Shown: positions 1-22,970 of the stretch, in pieces
Layout of the letters: each line of letters opens with the position of its first letter
Numbering within the stretch: the stretch's first letter is position 1
IMG/VR virus record: IMGVR_UViG_3300027747_002427
Origin: a virus
Lineage: Duplodnaviria; Caudoviricetes
Reading direction: 5' to 3' (one strand)
Length of the DNA: 64,000 bases
Made by a program: the position numbers and the translations under genes
The notes under the pieces: generated by a model
What the model saw: only the letters and a program-made list of their open reading frames with translations
The model's database searches: none
Told to the model about the DNA's origin: nothing

Positions 1-1
1 T

Positions 2-1591
2 TACATTTCCTGCACCAATTGGCGTAGTTATGGTCAGGTTTGTCATCTTTATTCCAGCAATTGTACAACCAGTATTTGTGCTTAATGTTCCATAAAGTAC
101 TATATTACCGCCAATAAGCCCCGGACCAGTTATAGTTGTATGTTGAACTGTTATTGATGGATTTTCAGTATAACCACCGGGATGAACAATAATTGTTTTG
201 CGTTGAGATCCTACTAAAGTCAACGCTTTAGTAATAGAAGCAACTGGGTTAAGCAAGTCACCATTACCAGTGGTGTCGTTTCCATCTATTTGGCTAACGT
301 GTATTTCATTGTCATAACCAGCAAGATTTAATGCTGATGTAGAAGCATATGCACTATTCCAATAATTTGCAGAAAGGCTCAATGCATTAACTGTAGAAAC
401 AGCTTGATAACCTAAGTTCCAGTTTGCAGACAAAGAGGATACTGTTAGATAAGTTGATTGCCAATTAGCACTTAAAGATGAAACAGTTGAAGCACTAGAT
501 TGCCAAACACCACTGACTGCTGGTGTTATATAGGCACTTCCACCACCACCACTATTTCCCCATCCTCCAGAATTATAATATACAGTACTATAAACTGAAT
601 TCCAATTGCTTGAAGAAAGATTTAATGCTGTAGTAGAAGCATAAGCACTATTCCAATTCCCTGTTAAGCTATTAATAGCAGTATTAAAAACCAACTGGCT
701 TGTCAGAGTATTTGTAAGAGTTAAAGGTGTTAAAAAACCAGTTAAAGTATTAGTAATAGTTAAAGGAGTTAGTAATGATGAAGTACTTTGAAGTAAAGTA
801 TTAGTGGCAAAAGAACCAGAAGCGTTTTGATATGTTGTAGCTATTGTATATGCAGTATTCCAATACGAACTAGAAAGATTTAAAAAATTAGTTGTAGAAA
901 CAGATCGATATGCTGAATTCCAATTAGCAGAATTAGAAGAAAGTATAGTTAAAGAACCACTATTAGAATTAAAAGTAGTATAAACCGAATTCCAATTAGC
1001 ACTTAAAGAAGATACGGTTGAATAAGTCGATTGCCAGTTAGCACTTTGAGGTAAACTGAAAGAAACTACGATTCCTCCGCTAACTAAAGAATAAGCAGTG
1101 TTCCAATAAATAGAAGATAAAGCTAAAGCATTTGTTGTTGATACTGCTTGGTATCCCAAATTCCAATTAGTACTTAAAGATGAAACCGTCGAAGCACTAG
1201 ATTGCCAAATACCACTAACAACTGGAGATATAGAACTACCACCACCTCCACCTGTCCAGCCACCAGAATTAAAATTGACAACACTGTAAACACTATCCCA
1301 AGAACCGTATTTAGATAATACAAAATTATTTAAAATATTAAAAGCTGAAAGATTTGCTTTTAATAATAAAGCACTTAATGTTGCATTAGATATAGGTTTA
1401 TCTAAATCTCTTGTATTATCTACTAGACCCAAACCTATATCAAATTTAGTTAAATTAACAATTCCGTTTTGACCATTTACACTAATAACCCCTCCACCAG
1501 TATTAACGGTAATGGTTTGAGATGGTGTTTGCTGATTAACAAAAATAGAATCACCTGCTGTGTTATCATTAATAACAATTTGATCGCTCAT
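2..1591 (-). CDS. Tail fibre/spike protein, 3'-truncated by the window edge (not in the supplied ORF track)
   Basis: Manual translation from ATG at 1591 reads MSDQIVINDNTAGDSIFVNQ... and its frame matches the open frame at the window edge. Contains the phage-fibre motif ISVNGQNGIVNLTKFDIGLGLVDNTRDLDKPIS, many SANWNSxYxxV repeats, and HVSQIDGNDTTGNG..NPVASITKAL (typical start of a beta-helix/pectin-lyase-like domain). Confidence 0.8.
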   Translation of the reverse strand, partial: MSDQIVINDNTAGDSIFVNQQTPSQTITVNTGGGVISVNGQNGIVNLTKFDIGLGLVDNTRDLDKPISNATLSALLLKANLSAFNILNNFVLSKYGSWDSVYSVVNFNSGGWTGGGGGSSISPVVSGIWQSSASTVSSLSTNWNLGYQAVSTTNALALSSIYWNTAYSLVSGGIVVSFSLPQSANWQSTYSTVSSLSANWNSVYTTFNSNSGSLTILSSNSANWNSAYRSVSTTNFLNLSSSYWNTAYTIATTYQNASGSFATNTLLQSTSSLLTPLTITNTLTGFLTPLTLTNTLTSQLVFNTAINSLTGNWNSAYASTTALNLSSSNWNSVYSTVYYNSGGWGNSGGGGSAYITPAVSGVWQSSASTVSSLSANWQSTYLTVSSLSANWNLGYQAVSTVNALSLSANYWNSAYASTSALNLAGYDNEIHVSQIDGNDTTGNGDLLNPVASITKALTLVGSQRKTIIVHPGGYTENPSITVQHTTITGPGLIGGNIVLYGTLSTNTGCTIAGIKMTNLTITTPIGAGNV

Positions 1592-4321: not shown

Positions 4322-4597
4322 ATGAAAGAAGAGGTTTACAACCTTAATAATTTAACTCATAATCAAATTAAATTGATTATAGAAGCTTTGCTTTATGCTG
4401 GTTCTGTTGATGTAAATAGTGCCTGGTATAAGAAAGACATTGAACAAATAGTTGACCTTGCTATAAACTTAAGAAAATTAGCCAATAATATCCCTCTAAA
4501 AGAAATTTATGCTTTTGAAGAAGAATATCTTGATTCAACCACAAAGAAAATACTTGATTATTTTCCTGAACTATTAGATAATAAACCCAATTTATGA
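4322..4597 (+). CDS. Hypothetical protein
   Basis: 91-aa ORF with ATGA overlap into the next gene; no recognised motif. Confidence 0.65.
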   Translation: MKEEVYNLNNLTHNQIKLIIEALLYAGSVDVNSAWYKKDIEQIVDLAINLRKLANNIPLKEIYAFEEEYLDSTTKKILDYFPELLDNKPNL

Positions 4598-5223
4598 AAA
4601 TATGCGTATCTGGAACCCAGTGTGTAGGTAAAAGCACATATATCCAAGATTTTTTAAAGACTTGGCCAATGTATGAAACCCCTCAAAAATCTTATAGAGA
4701 TGTAATTAAAGAAAAAAACCTTCCTCACAGCAATGAAGGCAATGAAGAGTCTCAAAAAATTATATTAGATCATCTTATTGATCAGGCTCAAGAATATTCT
4801 AAAAGTGATAATGTTATATTTGATAGATGCGTATTAGACAATCTAGCATATTCTTCTTGGTTAAATCTTAATGGAAAAGTTTCAGACAAGTTTTTAGATG
4901 AATCTCGCATTATTGTTAGAGAAACACTAAGCATGTTTGATATTATCTTTTACATACCTTTAACTAAAGCAGCACCAGTTGAATTAGTTGAAGATGGATT
5001 AAGAAATACAGATCCTTTGTTTAGAGAAGAAATAGATAATATCTTTAAAGTATTCCAGCAATCATTCTTTCAGGGAGATGGTAGAATCTTTAAGAAAGGT
5101 GATTCAGCTCCTATTATTGACATTTACGGCAGTCCAGAAGAACGTATAGTTCTTACTAGTCTTTATATAACTAAAGAGGGTAAGCAGTATGGTGAAGAAG
5201 ATACTCTAATTAAGCCCGCTTAA
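4594..5223 (+). CDS. P-loop NTPase, AAA_28/NadR-type nucleotide-kinase-like
   Basis: Walker A SGTQCVGKST, DRCVLDNLAY motif, DIIFYIP...EDGLR; paralogous to 19482..20027. Confidence 0.8.
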   Translation: MKICVSGTQCVGKSTYIQDFLKTWPMYETPQKSYRDVIKEKNLPHSNEGNEESQKIILDHLIDQAQEYSKSDNVIFDRCVLDNLAYSSWLNLNGKVSDKFLDESRIIVRETLSMFDIIFYIPLTKAAPVELVEDGLRNTDPLFREEIDNIFKVFQQSFFQGDGRIFKKGDSAPIIDIYGSPEERIVLTSLYITKEGKQYGEEDTLIKPA

Positions 5224-7732: not shown

Positions 7733-8449
7733 ATGGATGTCAAAAAACCTAAATCAATTGTAATTTATAGTGGTGGACTAGATTCTACCTGTTTATTGTA
7801 TAGAATTAATAAAGAATCAGATACATTAGCCTTAATCTTTAACTATGGTCAAAGACATTCTATAGAAATAGAAAGAGCCATAGATAATTGTATTAAATTA
7901 AATATACCTCACAAGGTATTAGATATATCATTCTTTAAGGATATAGCATCTTCATCGGCTTTATTAGATTACAATAAAGAAATTCCCAACATTAAAGATA
8001 TAGCAGGTCATGCTCAACCACCAACATATGTCCCTAACAGGAATATGATGTTTTTATCTATTGCCACAGCAGCTGCAGAATCAGCAGGAGCGGACAAGGT
8101 TTATTATGGTGCAGCGGAAGTAGACACTCATAGTGGTCATTGGGATTGTTCATTAGATTTCTTAAAAAATATTAACCAGACCATTTCTCTTAATAGAGAA
8201 CACCAGATTGAAATAGTAGCTCCTTATATTACCTTTTCTAAAGCTGATATTATTAAAGATGGAATAGCAAACGGTGTAGATTTTAAAAATACACATACGT
8301 GTTACAAAGGAGAAGAAATATCTTGTGGCACTTGTTCGTCTTGTGCTTCACGCATTCAAGGGTTTTTAGAAGCTGGATATATTGATCCTAAAGAATATGT
8401 AATATCAGATAAAATCCCATGGAAAAATTACAATTGCCAAGTCCTGTAA
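7733..8449 (+). CDS. queC: QueC family (7-cyano-7-deazaguanine synthase-like) PP-loop ATPase
   Basis: SGGLDST PP-loop, NYGQRHSIE, TYVPNRNMMFLSIA, SKADII and Zn site TCYKGEEISCGTCSSCASR. The loop reads SGHWDCS rather than canonical SGYPDCR. Confidence 0.92.
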   Translation: MDVKKPKSIVIYSGGLDSTCLLYRINKESDTLALIFNYGQRHSIEIERAIDNCIKLNIPHKVLDISFFKDIASSSALLDYNKEIPNIKDIAGHAQPPTYVPNRNMMFLSIATAAAESAGADKVYYGAAEVDTHSGHWDCSLDFLKNINQTISLNREHQIEIVAPYITFSKADIIKDGIANGVDFKNTHTCYKGEEISCGTCSSCASRIQGFLEAGYIDPKEYVISDKIPWKNYNCQVL

Positions 8450-9102
8450 ATCATTATCACTTTGTTTGTGCTACACCTCTTTCTCAATATAAATTTGAGA
8501 AAAGTCAATTTAATTTATTTTTAGACAAATTTGCTTATAAAAATTATACAATTGTTTATAGTAACAAAGAAGGTCTTCCAAAGGTTTATAACAAATTTTT
8601 TACAGAAGACCATAAAGGCAAAAAAATTATCTTCATACATGATGATGTATTAATTGAAGATCTTTTTTGGCAAGAAAAATTAGATATAGCTTTTGAAAAA
8701 TATGACATAGTAGGATTAGCCGGGTCTAAAAAAATAGACAGATCTCGTCCTCCTGCTTGGCATTTAATGTCTAATAAAGAAGATATAGTAGGTGAAGTGG
8801 CACATGCTTATGAAGGTAAAACATGGACCACGGTTTTCGGACCTACAGATTCGAGAGCTCTTGTATTAGATGGTCTTTTTATAGCAGTTGATGTAGATAA
8901 AGCATTATCTACCAACACTACATTTGATGAAGATTTTGATTTTCATCATTATGACATTTCATTTTGTTTGAGAGCTAATAATAATAAATTAAAAATGGGT
9001 GTAGCACCTATTAAAGTAGTTCACTTTGGTTTAGGAGACAGTATGAATACTCCAGAGTGGAATTCTAGTGCCGCTAGATTCAACTTAAAGTATAATCAAT
9101 AA
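8419..9102 (+). CDS. GT-A fold glycosyltransferase (GT2-like)
   Basis: GLPKVYN, IIFIHDDVLI (DxD-type), YDIVGLAG, LDGLFIAV, FDEDFDFHHYDISFCL; overlaps the queC 3' end. Confidence 0.82.
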   Translation: MEKLQLPSPVNHYHFVCATPLSQYKFEKSQFNLFLDKFAYKNYTIVYSNKEGLPKVYNKFFTEDHKGKKIIFIHDDVLIEDLFWQEKLDIAFEKYDIVGLAGSKKIDRSRPPAWHLMSNKEDIVGEVAHAYEGKTWTTVFGPTDSRALVLDGLFIAVDVDKALSTNTTFDEDFDFHHYDISFCLRANNNKLKMGVAPIKVVHFGLGDSMNTPEWNSSAARFNLKYNQ

Positions 9103-9759
9103 ATGTGTGGAATATATGGAAATTTAGATTACGCAGAATTTTATCGGCTTTACAAATTAAACCAATCTAGAGGAAGTTATAGCACTGGTTTTTTATTAAC
9201 AGATATTGATGAATATGAGATAAAGAAAACTTCAGAAGAGATATCTTATTATCCTATAGCTCAGAAAAATTATTATCTTGGCCACAACAGAGCACCTACT
9301 ACTGATGAAAATGGAAAGGGATTAGTAGGATGCCATCCTTTCTCATATGGCGTTGCTATTGCAGCACATAACGGAATTATTTCTAATACTTTAGAATTAG
9401 AAAATGAATATAGAACAAAATTTGATGTAGATAGTCAATGGATACCTTATCTTTATGATTATTATGTTAAAAGAAATAATAATAAGCTAAGAGCATTTGA
9501 ATTGACGTTGCTTGAAATAGACGGAACTTACGGTATTTGGTTATATGATGTAAATGAAAAAGTCACCTTTGTTTCAAGAAGTGATAATACGGTTTATTGG
9601 AATGATCAAAAGACTTCTTTTTCTTCTGTTAATGACGAAGAACATAAAAATTTAATGCCACAAGGAGCTATATATACAAAAGAATTTAATGAAATCTCAT
9701 TTGTTGATATAAATGAGAATAACAGGTTGAATAAGAGACAGAAGTATTTTATTATATAA
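9103..9759 (+). CDS. Class II (Ntn) glutamine amidotransferase
   Basis: N-terminal MCGIYG with catalytic Cys2, LGHNRAPT, HPF, AHNGIISN, VDSQ; ATG directly follows the upstream TAA. Confidence 0.88.
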   Translation: MCGIYGNLDYAEFYRLYKLNQSRGSYSTGFLLTDIDEYEIKKTSEEISYYPIAQKNYYLGHNRAPTTDENGKGLVGCHPFSYGVAIAAHNGIISNTLELENEYRTKFDVDSQWIPYLYDYYVKRNNNKLRAFELTLLEIDGTYGIWLYDVNEKVTFVSRSDNTVYWNDQKTSFSSVNDEEHKNLMPQGAIYTKEFNEISFVDINENNRLNKRQKYFII

Positions 9760-9762
9760 GAC

Positions 9763-10335
9763 ATGAGTTATTTTAAACAAGATTATAATGGTGATTTGAT
9801 TCACAAGAGATTTGGTTATGAATACTTTAAGAAGGATTATGATCCTCTTGGTGTTATTATTGCATTCCGCGGCAACATGGATGTTACAGATAATTTAATT
9901 GATCTAGAAGACAAATTAAATAATGATTATATCTATTCAGAAGATGCTTTAAATTTCTGTTGGGAGATTCCAAATATTTGTCCTATTGGTGCAGTCTTCT
10001 TTCAAAGACTCTTTGCACGTTATATTGGAGATGAATTAGCCAACGGATATTACGGTAAATTTGAAGTTAAAGTAGATGGAGATGATATTATGATCCGTAA
10101 ACCCGGAGATGAGGAATATGGAAAAGCTAGTGTTAGCATTACTAAGGTTATTGATGGTAATGTAGCCATTGGTCATCTAGGCTTGAATATAAAAGCTGGT
10201 CCTAAAGCTCCTTCTTTTGCCTTTTCTCTTTTGTTGGATGATGCAAATGCTTCTTATCTTACGAATAGAATTAAGGCAATTTTTCAAGAGACTATTAAAG
10301 ATTGTTTTGTTGCTACTACAAAGGTAATCATTTAA
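9763..10335 (+). CDS. DUF366-like protein (BPL/LplA/class II aaRS-like fold)
   Basis: IIAFRGNMDV..NLIDLED....YIYSEDALNF.WE, AVFFQRLF, VDGDDI, KASVSI, HLGLNI match my recollection of the DUF366 family; needs HMM confirmation. Confidence 0.7.
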   Translation: MSYFKQDYNGDLIHKRFGYEYFKKDYDPLGVIIAFRGNMDVTDNLIDLEDKLNNDYIYSEDALNFCWEIPNICPIGAVFFQRLFARYIGDELANGYYGKFEVKVDGDDIMIRKPGDEEYGKASVSITKVIDGNVAIGHLGLNIKAGPKAPSFAFSLLLDDANASYLTNRIKAIFQETIKDCFVATTKVII

Positions 10336-19481: not shown

Positions 19482-20027
19482 ATGAAATATGCATTAACAG
19501 GGTCTCATGGTGTTGGTAAGACTACTATTATCAACGAGCTATGTGATTACCTAGAATTATCTAGAATTAAGCCTATTATTAATAGTAGTAATGCTCGTAA
19601 GATTATGCTTTCTGGCAGGACTATTAATGATTCTGGGGATGATATTGTTCAGATGATTGTTGAATGTAGTCATGTTAGTAAATTTTGTGAAGATGATTGG
19701 TTTGCTGATCGTAGTGTTTTGGATGGGTATGCTTATACAAAGTATTTGCATAATCAGGGTAAAGTATCAAATGAAGTGATGAATGTAATTGAAAAATTAA
19801 TGAGCACATTTGTTAAACTTTATGATAATATTTTTTATATTCCAGTAGAATTTGATATGATTAAAGATGGTGTAAGAAAAGAAGACGAGCAATTCCAGAA
19901 AGATATAGATAATATTATATATAACACAATGATTAATAATAATATTAGCTTTCATACTATAACAGGTTCTGTAGTAGAGAGAGTAGAAAAGATTAAAGGT
20001 ATTATTCATCCTCACTTCGATTACTAA
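19482..20027 (+). CDS. P-loop NTPase, AAA_28/NadR-type nucleotide-kinase-like; start revised to ATG 19482
   Basis: MKYALTGSHGVGKTT, DRSVLDGYAY, YDNIFYIP...DGVR; aligns with 4594..5223 from residue 1. Confidence 0.8.
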   Translation: MKYALTGSHGVGKTTIINELCDYLELSRIKPIINSSNARKIMLSGRTINDSGDDIVQMIVECSHVSKFCEDDWFADRSVLDGYAYTKYLHNQGKVSNEVMNVIEKLMSTFVKLYDNIFYIPVEFDMIKDGVRKEDEQFQKDIDNIIYNTMINNNISFHTITGSVVERVEKIKGIIHPHFDY

Positions 20028-20028
20028 A

Positions 20029-20484
20029 TTGCAAACCTTTCTTCCTTATCCTGATTTTGCTAAGTCAGTTAAATGTCTAGACATGAGGCGTCTAGGTAAA
20101 CAAAGAGCTGAAGTCTATGGATTACTTCGGTCTTTTGAAATGGATCCAGAACAAGATAAGAAGCTTGGATTTAGAGATCCTAATAAATGGATGTGGTGGG
20201 GTCATTTTAATCAATTAATTGAATATGGTATAGCAGCTTGTGATGAATGGATCTCTCGCGGATATAAAGATACTTGCAGAGAGAAGATAGCAGCTTACAA
20301 GGATGTTTTTTCAAAGAATAATGAGCTTCCTTTTTGGTTTGGCAATGCTAAAGTACATTATTCGCATCAATGTGTTTTATTAAAAAAAGCTCCAGAACAT
20401 TATAGTAGGCTTTTTCCATATGCAGATATTAACCAAGGTTATATTTGGCCAGATTGTAGACATAACTTCTATTGGTATAAGTAA
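20029..20484 (+). CDS. Pyrimidine-dimer DNA glycosylase family (DenV/MSMEG_6728-like)
   Basis: MQTFLPY.DF..S...LD.RRLGKQR.E, W.SRGYKDTC, P.WFG...VH.SHQ..LL.K.PEHY; TTG start. Confidence 0.8.
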   Translation: MQTFLPYPDFAKSVKCLDMRRLGKQRAEVYGLLRSFEMDPEQDKKLGFRDPNKWMWWGHFNQLIEYGIAACDEWISRGYKDTCREKIAAYKDVFSKNNELPFWFGNAKVHYSHQCVLLKKAPEHYSRLFPYADINQGYIWPDCRHNFYWYK

Positions 20485-21579: not shown

Positions 21580-22035
21580 ATGAATGAAGAACCTTTTAAG
21601 TTAGAACCAATAAGAATACATTTTATAAAAACACATCCAGATGCAATTCTTCCATCTAAGAAGAATATAAATGATACCGGATATGATCTTTCTTCCGTTG
21701 AAGAAGTAGTAGTACCAGCTAAAGGGTCAGCAGTTGTTCCTACGGGATTACAAGTAGCAAAGACAGAAAGAGGTTTATGGTATTTAATTCTTCCTCGTTC
21801 AGGTATGGGATTTAAACACAGCATACAACCACATTTAGGAGTTATAGATAATGAATATAGAGGTGATTTAGGAGTTAAGCTTTACAACTTTTCTGATGTT
21901 GATTACAAGGTAAACAAAGGTGATAGAGTAGCTCAAATTGCTTACTTCCCATTACTTTGCATAGAACCTACATGGGCAACAGAAACAGACGAAACTTCTC
22001 GCGGAGCTAATGGATTTGGTAGCTCAGGCTTCTAA
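21580..22035 (+). CDS. dut: Trimeric dUTPase
   Basis: All five motifs: TGYDL, PRSGMG, GVIDNEYRG, GDRVAQ, RGANGFGSSG. Confidence 0.96.
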   Translation: MNEEPFKLEPIRIHFIKTHPDAILPSKKNINDTGYDLSSVEEVVVPAKGSAVVPTGLQVAKTERGLWYLILPRSGMGFKHSIQPHLGVIDNEYRGDLGVKLYNFSDVDYKVNKGDRVAQIAYFPLLCIEPTWATETDETSRGANGFGSSGF

Positions 22036-22970
22036 TGAGTAATCATTACGAAACACTTTGGGTTGAGCGCTACAGACCCAAGACATTAAAAGACATTATT
22101 CTCACAGAAGAGAATAGAGAACATTTTAATACTATCGGAGAAGATACACCTAATATTCTTTTTCACGGATCTCCTGGTACTGGTAAAAGTACCTTAGCTA
22201 AGATTATTGTTATTGATATTTTAAAATGTCAATATCTTTATATTAATGCTTCGGATGAAAGTGGTATTGATACTATTAGAAATAAAGTTATTAGCTTTGC
22301 TCAGACCCGTTCAGTAGATGGAAAGAAGAAAGTAGTAATATTAGAAGAGGCTGATGGTCTTACAGGTGATGCATTACGTATTCTTCGCAATGTCATGGAA
22401 GAATATGTAGATACTACTCGATTTATTCTTACAGCCAATTATCTCAATAAAATAATTGAGCCTATTAGATCGCGTTGTATGCTTTTTAAATTACAACCAG
22501 ACTTAGTAGGATGTGTTACTAGAGTTGTAGAGATTTTAAAGAAAGAAAATATCAAGGTCGATGCTAATACTTCTAAAAGACTAGCTGAATTTACTACAGA
22601 TAGGTATCCAGACCTTAGACGTATTATTAATGATCTACAAAGGTTTTCTGTATCAGGTTCTTTAGTTATTCCAGAAGACGATCAGATATCAGATTTGGCA
22701 TCTTATATTATTAAAGGATTAGCAGTTTCTAAGACATCTTCTTTAGATCTTAGAAAGAAAGTTATTGAATCAGAAAAGTTATTCAATAGTGACTACCAAT
22801 TGCTTTTAAAGCAAATGTTTGATTATGTCTATGATTCAGGTTTAACAGAGAAGGAGAAGAAGATTCTCCTCATAGACATAGGTGAATATATGTATAGAGA
22901 TAATTTCGTATTAGATCACGAAATTAATTTCTTCTGCTGTTTACTGGCTATAGAAGCTTCGTTTAATTAA
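22035..22970 (+). CDS. gp44: Clamp loader large subunit (T4 gp44/RFC family AAA+)
   Basis: LWVERYRP, GSPGTGKST, INASDESGIDTIR, LEEADGL, SRC, PDLRRIINDLQ. Confidence 0.93.
   Translation: MSNHYETLWVERYRPKTLKDIILTEENREHFNTIGEDTPNILFHGSPGTGKSTLAKIIVIDILKCQYLYINASDESGIDTIRNKVISFAQTRSVDGKKKVVILEEADGLTGDALRILRNVMEEYVDTTRFILTANYLNKIIEPIRSRCMLFKLQPDLVGCVTRVVEILKKENIKVDANTSKRLAEFTTDRYPDLRRIINDLQRFSVSGSLVIPEDDQISDLASYIIKGLAVSKTSSLDLRKKVIESEKLFNSDYQLLLKQMFDYVYDSGLTEKEKKILLIDIGEYMYRDNFVLDHEINFFCCLLAIEASFN

What the first reader, a model, noticed from the sequence alone, without database searches (positions are those of the whole stretch)
7733..10335. Candidate new modification system: queC + glycosyltransferase + class II amidotransferase + DUF366-like ligase fold
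Seen in sequence: four genes that overlap or lie within 3 nt of each other, near the primase and co-transcribed with gp62-like, groES and a helicase. Established: phage QueC makes preQ0 for 7-deazaguanine DNA modification via FolE/QueD/QueE/DpdA; a class II GAT fused to QueC makes archaeosine; QueC paralogues in QatABCD and type IV CBASS act in defence, including protein deazaguanylation. Inference: no folE, queD, queE, dpdA or tgt is recognisable in these 64 kb. The partners are instead a sugar transferase and a BPL/LplA-like adenylating fold. The cluster could build a glycosylated or otherwise hypermodified deazaguanine/amidine base in phage DNA (anti-restriction), or conjugate a nucleobase or sugar to a protein or tRNA. 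I know of no described pathway with this four-gene composition.
Basis: partly seen in the sequence, partly recalled or inferred. Interest (0 to 1): 0.88.

Follow-up and report, generated by a model that had tools for sequence, protein, structure and literature searches.

The report
Deazaguanine DNA-modification genes beside a bystander glycosyltransferase
Three of the four genes (QueC, a glutamine amidotransferase and DUF366) are the local part of a known kind of phage system that replaces guanine in DNA with a 7-deazaguanine. The glycosyltransferase is a resident neighbour, so this is a new variant of a known system and not a new one.

Summary

The "no folE/queD/queE/dpdA" argument fails. Two (near-)complete relatives that carry QueC, GAT and DUF366 also encode FolE2, QueD, QueE and a DpdA3-type DNA transglycosylase, scattered over the genome. 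The closest relative (82% complete) has FolE2, QueD and DpdA3; QueE was not found in it.

Complete relatives that lack QueC lack all of these genes but keep the glycosyltransferase at the same locus. The glycosyltransferase is therefore not part of the module. The window itself carries the kinase-like gene that follows DpdA3 in Campylobacter phage CP220 and Flavobacterium phage immuto_2-6A.

A standalone GAT next to QueC recurs in three gene layouts, including Vibrio phage KVP40. It resembles a split Gat-QueC.

DUF366 sits inside queD-queC-DUF366-queE operons in 26 of 31 bacterial loci examined and has a biotin-ligase-like fold. It is probably an unstudied partner of QueC. This scan had already reached that conclusion on other DNA (36 earlier notes).

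Verdict: a new variant of the known phage 7-deazaguanine system. The modified base it makes is unknown.

The parts
7733..8449 (+). QueC (7-cyano-7-deazaguanine synthase family). Variant substrate-loop motif HWDCS where canonical QueC has YPDCR. PP-loop and C-terminal Cys cluster are intact.
   Evidence: PF06508 at 1.5e-57 and TIGR00364 above its cut-off. 1e-31 to B. subtilis QueC, PDB 3BL5. 42% identical to KVP40 QueC. Motif comparison.
8419..9102 (+). GT-A (GT2-like) glycosyltransferase with an HDD motif. A resident gene of this locus, not co-inherited with the deazaguanine genes. Acceptor unknown.
   Evidence: PF13712 at 3.9e-11. AF2 model pLDDT 88.6; best Foldseek match is the UDP-binding majastridin 2QGI, TM 0.70, followed by generic GT2 enzymes. 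Present in QueC-less complete genomes G010-G012.
9103..9759 (+). Standalone class II (Ntn) glutamine amidotransferase. Probable nitrogen-donor partner of QueC, resembling a split Gat-QueC.
   Evidence: GATase_6 at 3.4e-7. Invariant Cys2, RG, HNG and D(S/T) motifs, shared with the 9g Gat domain. Homologous to KVP40.0125, which lies next to KVP40 QueC. Absent from G011.
9763..10335 (+). DUF366 protein with a BPL/LplA-like fold. Conserved, uncharacterised partner of the preQ0 genes.
   Evidence: PF04017 at 5.5e-20. AF2 model pLDDT 90.3; Foldseek hits 2DDZ at TM 0.76, then biotin protein ligases at TM about 0.5-0.58. Found in queD-queC-DUF366-queE operons in 26 of 31 bacterial loci. A second phage cluster is locus L251.
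19482..20027 (+). AAA_28 P-loop kinase-like protein. Homologue of the gene that follows DpdA3 in CP220 and immuto_2-6A. It co-varies with the QueC set.
   Evidence: PF13521 at 6.6e-13. E 4e-19 and 7e-21 to the DpdA3-adjacent 'thymidylate kinase' genes. Orthologue absent from G011.

Best explanation
QueC, the standalone class II amidotransferase and DUF366 are the part of a dispersed, DpdA3-type 7-deazaguanine DNA-modification pathway that happens to lie between the primase and the GroES-like gene.

Proposed pathway:
1. FolE2, QueD and QueE convert GTP into 7-carboxy-7-deazaguanine (CDG).
2. QueC, fed with glutamine-derived ammonia by the GAT and assisted by DUF366, converts CDG into preQ0 or an amide/amidine derivative (ADG or G+).
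3. A DpdA3-family transglycosylase, with its kinase-like neighbour, puts the base into phage DNA as protection against restriction.

The FolE2, QueD, QueE and DpdA3 genes are seen in close relatives and are presumed to lie in the unsequenced half of this genome.

The GT-A glycosyltransferase is an older resident of the locus with an unrelated, unknown acceptor.

Shown here: gene identities, synteny, and presence/absence across relatives.
Inferred: the roles of GAT and DUF366, the identity of the final base, and the presence of the missing genes in this particular genome.
For: - Gene identities.
- Genes present in QueC+ G002 (99% complete) and G005 (100%, terminal repeats) but absent from QueC-less G011 (100%): QueC, GAT, DUF366, FolE2 (PF02649, 5.8e-66), a QueE-like protein (five QueE NCBIfam models, best 3e-13), QueD, a 286-aa DpdA-like protein, an AAA_28 kinase-like protein and a GMP reductase.
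- The 286-aa protein matches TGT/DpdA clusters structurally (TM 0.70-0.89). It is 39% identical to the annotated DNA guanine transglycosylase of Flavobacterium phage immuto_2-6A and 35% identical to the CP220 homologue. PMC10516641 defines both as DpdA3.
- The closest relative, G001 (82% complete; 83-86% identity in QueC and DUF366), has DpdA3, FolE2 and QueD about 42-50 kb from its cluster, on the side where this contig ends.
- QueC-less G010, G011 and G012 lack QueC, DUF366, DpdA3 and FolE2 but keep the glycosyltransferase.
- In G005 the order is QueC, GAT, GNAT, GT between uvsX and gp41, with DUF366 40 kb away. So QueC and GAT stay linked in a second layout.
- KVP40 has FolE, DpdA2, QueF, QueC and a homologous GAT in a row.
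- DUF366 lies in que operons of bacteria and in a second phage type.
- The window's own kinase-like gene matches the DpdA3 neighbours.
Against: - No DpdA3, FolE2, QueD or QueE was seen in this genome's own 106.8 kb. Their presence rests on relatives. Public records of the genome itself are withheld, so I could not walk further along it.
- The GAT has no significant BLAST similarity to the Gat domain of phage 9g Gat-QueC (E 0.34). Only the catalytic motifs align.
- No biochemical data exist for DUF366. No paper in the searchable library mentions it.
- Presence/absence counts come from about 14 related phage records and are not phylogenetically independent.
- The glycosyltransferase sits between QueC and GAT here. 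In G005 it lies two genes from GAT, and in L011 a sugar epimerase separates them. A secondary link to the pathway cannot be excluded.
Confidence: 0.72

Rival explanations
1. One reading: the four genes form one new system that builds a glycosylated or otherwise hypermodified deazaguanine (or a nucleobase or sugar adduct on protein or tRNA) without DpdA.
For: - The four genes are tightly packed and co-oriented.
- Sugar-related genes recur near the module: an NAD epimerase/dehydratase between GAT and GT in L011 and L196, a GNAT between GAT and GT in G005, and three GT1/GT4 genes upstream of DUF366 in G005.
Against: - The glycosyltransferase is retained at the same locus, at 56-69% identity, in dozens of loci and in three 92-100% complete genomes with no QueC or DUF366 (G011, the one checked, also has no GAT).
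- A DpdA3 gene and a full preQ0 set co-vary with QueC, so no DpdA-independent route is needed.
- The glycosyltransferase fold matches only generic GT-A enzymes.
Confidence: 0.06
2. The phage genes do not modify DNA. They boost the host's preQ0/queuosine supply for tRNA and so tune translation during infection.
For: - Hutinet et al. 2019 raise this idea for phages that have preQ0 genes but no DpdA.
- No DpdA was found on this contig.
- In bacteria, DUF366 belongs to operons that serve tRNA queuosine, and all 41 DUF366+ genomes have Tgt.
Against: - DpdA3 co-varies perfectly with QueC among the relatives tested.
- The DpdA3-associated kinase-like gene is in the window.
- PMC10516641 reports full guanine replacement in DNA for phages with DpdA3.
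Confidence: 0.08
3. DUF366 is a non-orthologous replacement for QueF (preQ0 to preQ1), so the phage makes a preQ1-type base.
For: In one bacterial phylum only 4 of 41 DUF366+ genomes have QueF, although all 41 have Tgt. By my hand count, 46 of 73 QueC+ DUF366-less genomes have QueF.
Against: - G005 and four bacterial genomes carry both QueF and DUF366.
- Archaea that use preQ0 directly have DUF366; the control genomes M. jannaschii and M. acetivorans both match.
- The fold is a ligase type with no evident redox cofactor site.
- 27 of 73 QueC+ genomes lack both QueF and DUF366, so the absence of QueF is not specific to DUF366.
- Earlier follow-ups in this scan reached the same negative view.
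Confidence: 0.1

Closest known systems
[quoted passage not shown] 2023, PMC10516641
   Same: - Large myovirus genomes with the preQ0 genes scattered, not in one operon.
- A DpdA3 homologue (35-39% identity in relatives) followed by the same kinase-like gene.
- A PRTase close to QueD/QueE (G002, immuto gp211).
   Different: - FolE2 replaces FolE.
- QueC has a standalone class II GAT partner and a DUF366 partner. A tblastn of the phage collection with the DUF366 protein did not hit CP220 or immuto, and the annotated regions I read around their DpdA3 genes show no amidotransferase. Their whole genomes were not searched for GAT.
- No DpdL, DpdM or DpdN was seen.
- The modified base is unknown.
Gat-QueC of Enterobacteria phage 9g and Crenarchaeota (makes archaeosine base G+; dG+ in 9g DNA); Hutinet et al. 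2019, PMC6884629
   Same: A class II Ntn amidotransferase working with a QueC module. Catalytic Cys, HNG and DS motifs are shared. The Arg of the QueC YPDCR loop is lost in both: 9g has YPDNE and the window has HWDCS.
   Different: - Two separate polypeptides, and here they are not even adjacent.
- No significant pairwise similarity between the two Gat sequences (E 0.34).
- 9g uses DpdA1, not DpdA3.
Vibrio phage KVP40 / nt-1 cluster (QueD-like, FolE, DpdA2, QueF, QueC, standalone GAT KVP40.0125, gp31.1, gp31)
   Same: - T4-like phage with the closest cultured QueC (42-43% identity).
- A homologous standalone GAT directly after QueC.
- The same position upstream of the GroES-like gp31.
   Different: - DpdA2 in place of DpdA3.
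- No DUF366.
- Genes are clustered, not dispersed.
- nt-1 DNA is modified at only about 0.1% of its guanines.
Bacterial queD-queC-DUF366-queE operons; PH0223 of Pyrococcus horikoshii (PDB 2DDZ)
   Same: The same DUF366 family and fold, always alongside preQ0 genes. The adjacent QueC is a variant subfamily lacking the YPDCR arginine.
   Different: The bacterial operons serve tRNA queuosine (Tgt present). The phage copy serves a DNA pathway and can lie 40 kb from QueC (G005).

Membership tests
Phage 7-deazaguanine DNA modification system (DpdA-dependent) | preQ0 synthesis genes FolE/FolE2, QueD, QueE and QueC | tested here: inconclusive
   Only QueC lies on this genome's contig, which is about 50% complete. 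All four are present in relatives G002 and G005; G001 has FolE2 and QueD, and the Radical_SAM search found no QueE there.
Phage 7-deazaguanine DNA modification system (DpdA-dependent) | A DpdA-family DNA guanine transglycosylase | tested here: inconclusive
   Not found on the own contig. A DpdA3 homologue is present in G001, G002, G004, G005 and G006 and absent from QueC-less G010, G011 and G012. The DpdA3-linked kinase-like gene is in the window.
Phage 7-deazaguanine DNA modification system (DpdA-dependent) | A 7-deazaguanine nucleoside in virion DNA | not testable with these tools
   Uncultured phage known only from metagenomes.
Gat-QueC (G+ synthase) | Class II glutamine amidotransferase domain fused to QueC in one polypeptide | tested here: not met
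   Separate genes, with the glycosyltransferase gene between them. They are adjacent but still separate in L011, L012 and KVP40.
Gat-QueC (G+ synthase) | Gat module specifically related to the Gat domain of 9g or archaeal Gat-QueC | tested here: inconclusive
   BLASTP E 0.34. The catalytic motifs align at 21% identity.
DUF366 (PF04017) | Match to the family model and the PH0223 fold | tested here: met
   72.1 bits against a cut-off of 29.9. 2DDZ at 1.5e-17 by profile and TM 0.76 by fold.
Biotin/lipoate protein ligase (BPL/LplA) family | Ligase sequence motifs and adenylate-forming activity | tested here: inconclusive
   Fold similarity only: TM 0.45-0.58 at 10-18% identity. No Pfam BPL_LplA_LipB match. 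Activity not testable here.
QatABCD / type IV CBASS QueC-like defence proteins (QatC, Cap9) | Match to the QatC model and presence of the partner genes | tested here: not met
   QatC scores 20.8 bits against a cut-off of 280. The Cap9 match covers only the C-terminal 80 residues. The surrounding genes are phage replication and morphogenesis genes.
T4 alpha/beta-glucosyltransferases (DNA hmC glucosylation) | GT-B fold DNA glucosyltransferase | tested here: not met
   The model has a GT-A fold; its best matches are majastridin and GT2 enzymes.

The most novel reading that the evidence does not exclude
DUF366 is an obligatory, catalytically active fifth enzyme of preQ0 synthesis wherever the variant QueC (without the YPDCR arginine) occurs. 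One possibility is that it is the adenylate-forming partner that activates the carboxylate of CDG. In these phages QueC, the standalone GAT and DUF366 would then form a three-protein, glutamine-dependent machine. Its product, possibly an amidine or a base not yet described, would be inserted by DpdA3 to full guanine replacement. The recurring PRTase, kinase-like protein and GMP reductase may handle it at the nucleotide level.
Probability: 0.25. Interest if true: 0.75.

Novelty: new variant of a known kind. Interest (0 to 1): 0.45.

Why it matters
The finding removes a false lead. The cluster is not a DpdA-independent, sugar-based base-modification system, and the glycosyltransferase does not belong to it.

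It also yields three positive results:

1. It extends the DpdA3-type guanine-replacement system to a large group of uncultured aquatic T4-like phages. DUF366 homologues occur at 444 IMG/VR places, and DpdA3 systems are reported to modify DNA completely.

2. A standalone amidotransferase recurs beside a variant QueC in three independent gene layouts. That makes a testable 'split Gat-QueC'.

3. Phage evidence is added to the bacterial operon evidence that DUF366, a family with a solved structure but no known function, works with QueC. If DUF366 is catalytic, the textbook four-enzyme preQ0 pathway is incomplete for many organisms.

Knowing which base these phages make would also bear on resistance to restriction enzymes and on how their DNA behaves in sequencing.

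Tried and rejected
- blastn of the cluster against cultured phage genomes found no match.
- Single-sequence PDB searches of DUF366, GAT and GT gave nothing useful. A profile was needed.
- The genome-contig scan with phage DUF366 motifs returned only one MAG fragment, which is probably phage DNA.
- Pfam TGT, GTP_cyclohydroI and Radical_SAM searches of relatives were negative and at first suggested that the pathway was incomplete. That was misleading. These phages use FolE2, a QueE that scores only on Fer4_12 and the QueE NCBIfam models, and a DpdA3 that no Pfam model detects. They were found by comparing QueC+ genomes with a QueC-less genome.
- KVP40 DpdA2, FolE and QueF have no homologues in G000 or G002 by tblastn.
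- The ESM Atlas search on the 379-aa differential protein was uninformative.
- An attempt to walk beyond the contig end with the look-up of encoding contigs returned only contigs of at most 3 kb. Records of the own genome are withheld.
- Literature searches for DUF366, PF04017, COG2029 and PH0223 found no functional study. Searches combining 7-deazaguanine and phage with glycosyltransferase or phosphoribosyltransferase found nothing relevant.
- The QatC and Cap9 defence readings were rejected on scores and gene context.
Full report
**Observation.** The window is a fragment of an uncultured T4-like myovirus. It carries gp23, a gp15-like protein, the prohead protease, gp44, dUTPase and DenV. It corresponds to an IMG/VR record of 106,787 bp that CheckV rates as about 50% complete. 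Four + strand ORFs lie at 7733-8449, 8419-9102, 9103-9759 and 9763-10335, overlapping or separated by at most 3 nt.

They are:
- QueC: PF06508 at 1.5e-57, above the TIGR00364 equivalog cut-off, and 1e-31 to the B. subtilis QueC structure.
- A GT-A glycosyltransferase: PF13712 at 3.9e-11.
- A class II glutamine amidotransferase that starts MCG. Cys2, RG, HNG and DS are invariant.
- DUF366: PF04017 at 5.5e-20, with a profile hit to PDB 2DDZ at 1.5e-17.

So is the statement that no folE, queD, queE, tgt or dpdA lies in the window or in the rest of the contig.

**Do the four genes travel together?** They do not.

DUF366 homologues occur at 444 places in IMG/VR. In the 80 loci fetched the gene almost always lies 1-2 kb upstream of the GroES-like gene and the helicase. 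Only the closest 15 or so loci have QueC, GT and GAT beside it.

Close homologues of the glycosyltransferase (56-69% identity) occur in about 60 loci arranged primase, ORF, GT, ORF, GroES, with none of the other three genes.

Whole-record searches settle the question. Three relatives of this GT-only type (G010 100%, G011 100% with terminal repeats, G012 92% complete) have no QueC and no DUF366. Records of the DUF366-only type do carry QueC elsewhere: four of five tested, the fifth being a 20% fragment.

In the complete genome G005 the order is uvsX, QueC, an inserted opposite-strand ORF, GAT, GNAT, GT, gp41. DUF366 lies 40 kb away, behind three GT1/GT4 genes.

QueC, GAT and DUF366 therefore co-vary at the genome level. 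The glycosyltransferase is present whether or not they are.

**The supposedly missing pathway.** I fetched the (near-)complete genomes G002 (which has the four-gene cluster), G005 and G011 (GT only). I then listed the G002 ORFs that have a homologue in G005 but none in G011.

Besides QueC, GAT and DUF366, the list contains:
- FolE2: PF02649 at 5.8e-66 and NF010200 at 1.7e-62.
- A 250-aa radical-SAM protein whose best NCBIfam matches are all five QueE models.
- QueD.
- A GMP reductase.
- An AAA_28 kinase-like protein.
- A 286-aa protein with no Pfam match.

The 286-aa protein matches viral and cellular TGT/DpdA clusters in the ESM Atlas at TM 0.70-0.89. It is 39% identical to the annotated DNA guanine transglycosylase of Flavobacterium phage immuto_2-6A and 35% identical to the homologue in Campylobacter phage CP220. 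These are the founding members of DpdA3, the subfamily reported to give complete guanine replacement (PMC10516641).

G001 is the closest large relative, with 83-86% identity in QueC and DUF366. It has DpdA3, QueD and FolE2 about 42-50 kb from its cluster, on the side where the window's contig stops. G010 and G012 lack DpdA3 and FolE2.

My earlier negative searches with the Pfam TGT, GTP_cyclohydroI and Radical_SAM models were false negatives caused by divergent or alternative families.

The window itself holds one more member of the set. The protein at 19482-20027 is homologous (E 4e-19 and 7e-21) to the 'thymidylate kinase' genes that directly follow DpdA3 in immuto_2-6A and CP220. Its orthologue is missing from G011.

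**The amidotransferase.** The closest cultured QueC is that of Vibrio phage KVP40 and its relatives (42-43% identity). KVP40 has QueD-like, FolE, DpdA2, QueF, QueC and then a standalone 202-aa protein homologous to the window's GAT, followed by gp31.1 and gp31.

A standalone class II GAT thus accompanies QueC in three different layouts. Its catalytic residues are intact.

It has no significant pairwise similarity to the Gat domain of phage 9g Gat-QueC. I therefore describe it as working like a split Gat-QueC and do not file it as a member of that family.

All four phage QueCs that have a GAT partner have lost the arginine of the canonical YPDCR loop: HWDCS, HWDCS, YWDGS and YWDCT. So has 9g Gat-QueC (YPDNE). 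Phage QueCs without a GAT keep the arginine: CP220, immuto and L251. This is a correlation over a few sequences and not proof.

**DUF366.** The AlphaFold2 model (pLDDT 90) matches PH0223 (2DDZ) at TM 0.76, then biotin and lipoate protein ligases at TM about 0.5-0.58.

In a bacterial genome (GCA_001730225.1) the gene sits in queD-queC-DUF366-queE. In a sample of 401 genomes from that phylum, 41 have DUF366. Of the 31 loci fetched, 26 show all four genes in that order and 30 have at least one que gene alongside.

The adjacent QueC belongs to a distinct, lower-scoring subfamily with FPDNS in place of YPDCR.

A second, unrelated type of phage contig has QueD, PRTase, QueE, QueC, DUF366 and FolE in a row.

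All 41 DUF366+ bacteria have Tgt, but only 4 have QueF. This could suggest that DUF366 substitutes for QueF. Against that:
- QueF and DUF366 coexist in G005 and in four bacteria.
- DUF366 occurs in archaea.
- 27 of 73 QueC+ genomes lack both.
- The fold has no evident redox site.

I rate the QueF reading at about 0.1.

The best-supported reading is that DUF366 is a partner of variant QueC in the ATP-dependent conversion of CDG. This is an inference from gene context and from the adenylate-forming fold class.

No paper in the searchable library mentions the family. NCBIfam has no model for it. This scan has reached the same conclusion before on other DNA: 36 notes in at least 33 genomes.

**The glycosyltransferase.** The model (pLDDT 88.6) has a GT-A fold with an HDD motif. 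Its best match is majastridin, a UDP-binding protein of unknown acceptor, followed by generic GT2 enzymes.

Because complete genomes without any deazaguanine gene retain it, its primary function is independent of the pathway. Sugar-related genes do occur nearby in some relatives (an epimerase in L011, a GNAT and GT1/GT4 genes in G005). A secondary role cannot be excluded, but nothing specifically supports one.

**Verdict.** This is a new variant of the known phage 7-deazaguanine DNA-modification system. It is DpdA3-type, uses FolE2, has scattered genes, and adds a standalone amidotransferase and DUF366 to QueC.

Still unknown:
- The final base (preQ0, ADG, G+ or something else).
- Whether the PRTase, kinase-like protein and GMP reductase that recur in DpdA3 phages mean that the base is handled at the nucleotide level.
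- Direct proof that this particular genome carries the remaining genes.

Noticed in passing
window 19482-20027 (+): AAA_28 P-loop kinase-like gene, homologous to the gene that directly follows DpdA3 in Campylobacter phage CP220 and Flavobacterium phage immuto_2-6A. A paralogue at window 4594-5223 is present in all relatives, including the QueC-less ones.
   Followed up: yes
G002 132819-133289 (L100:12819-13289, -); L251:5378-5785; immuto_2-6A gp211 (L254:7840-8235); GMP reductase at G000:C1:5627-6541 (outside the window): A xanthine/hypoxanthine-guanine-type phosphoribosyltransferase recurs next to QueD/QueE in DpdA3-type phages. A GMP reductase co-varies with the QueC set. Together with the kinase-like gene, this hints that 7-deazaguanine may be handled at the nucleotide level, as in toyocamycin synthesis. 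The DpdA3 paper does not contain the words phosphoribosyl, kinase or GMP reductase.
   Followed up: partly
window 8132-8152 (QueC loop); L114:10536-11288 (-): Phage QueCs that have a standalone GAT partner read (H/Y)WD(C/G)(S/T) where canonical QueC has YPDCR. The QueC-like proteins of G005 and immuto_2-6A have also lost the C-terminal CxxCxxC zinc motif, and both phages encode QueF.
   Followed up: partly
L114:7972-8634 (-), relative G005: The G005 amidotransferase has no ATG, GTG or TTG before its catalytic Cys (the sequence reads ..NYICGIFG), so it probably starts at an ATH codon. A 621-aa ORF on the opposite strand is inserted between QueC and GAT.
   Followed up: no
L003:7902-8606 and L003:10540-11235: GIY-YIG/NUMOD3 homing-endonuclease genes are inserted inside the cluster of a close relative, between QueC and GT and again after DUF366.
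   Followed up: no
L011:8296-9309; L114:7502-7975 (-); L116:4335-7812: Sugar and acyl genes lie near the module in relatives: an NAD-dependent epimerase/dehydratase between GAT and GT, a GNAT acetyltransferase between GAT and GT in the QueF-encoding G005 (it could acylate preQ1), and three GT1/GT4 glycosyltransferases upstream of DUF366.
   Followed up: no
window 1-226: These bases are real sequence lying beyond the end of the IMG/VR record. The source assembly is therefore longer than the record that can be searched.
   Followed up: partly
bacterial genomes G015-G413 (phylum of GCA_001730225.1): Many QueC+ genomes in this phylum lack QueF: 34 of 38 with DUF366 and 27 of 73 without, by my hand count. 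All DUF366+ genomes keep Tgt. The enzyme that converts preQ0 to preQ1 in these bacteria is unidentified.
   Followed up: partly
window 20029-20484, 21580-22035, 22035-22970: A DenV-like pyrimidine dimer glycosylase, a dUTPase and a gp44 clamp-loader subunit lie downstream of the capsid genes. This is ordinary T4-like content.
   Followed up: no
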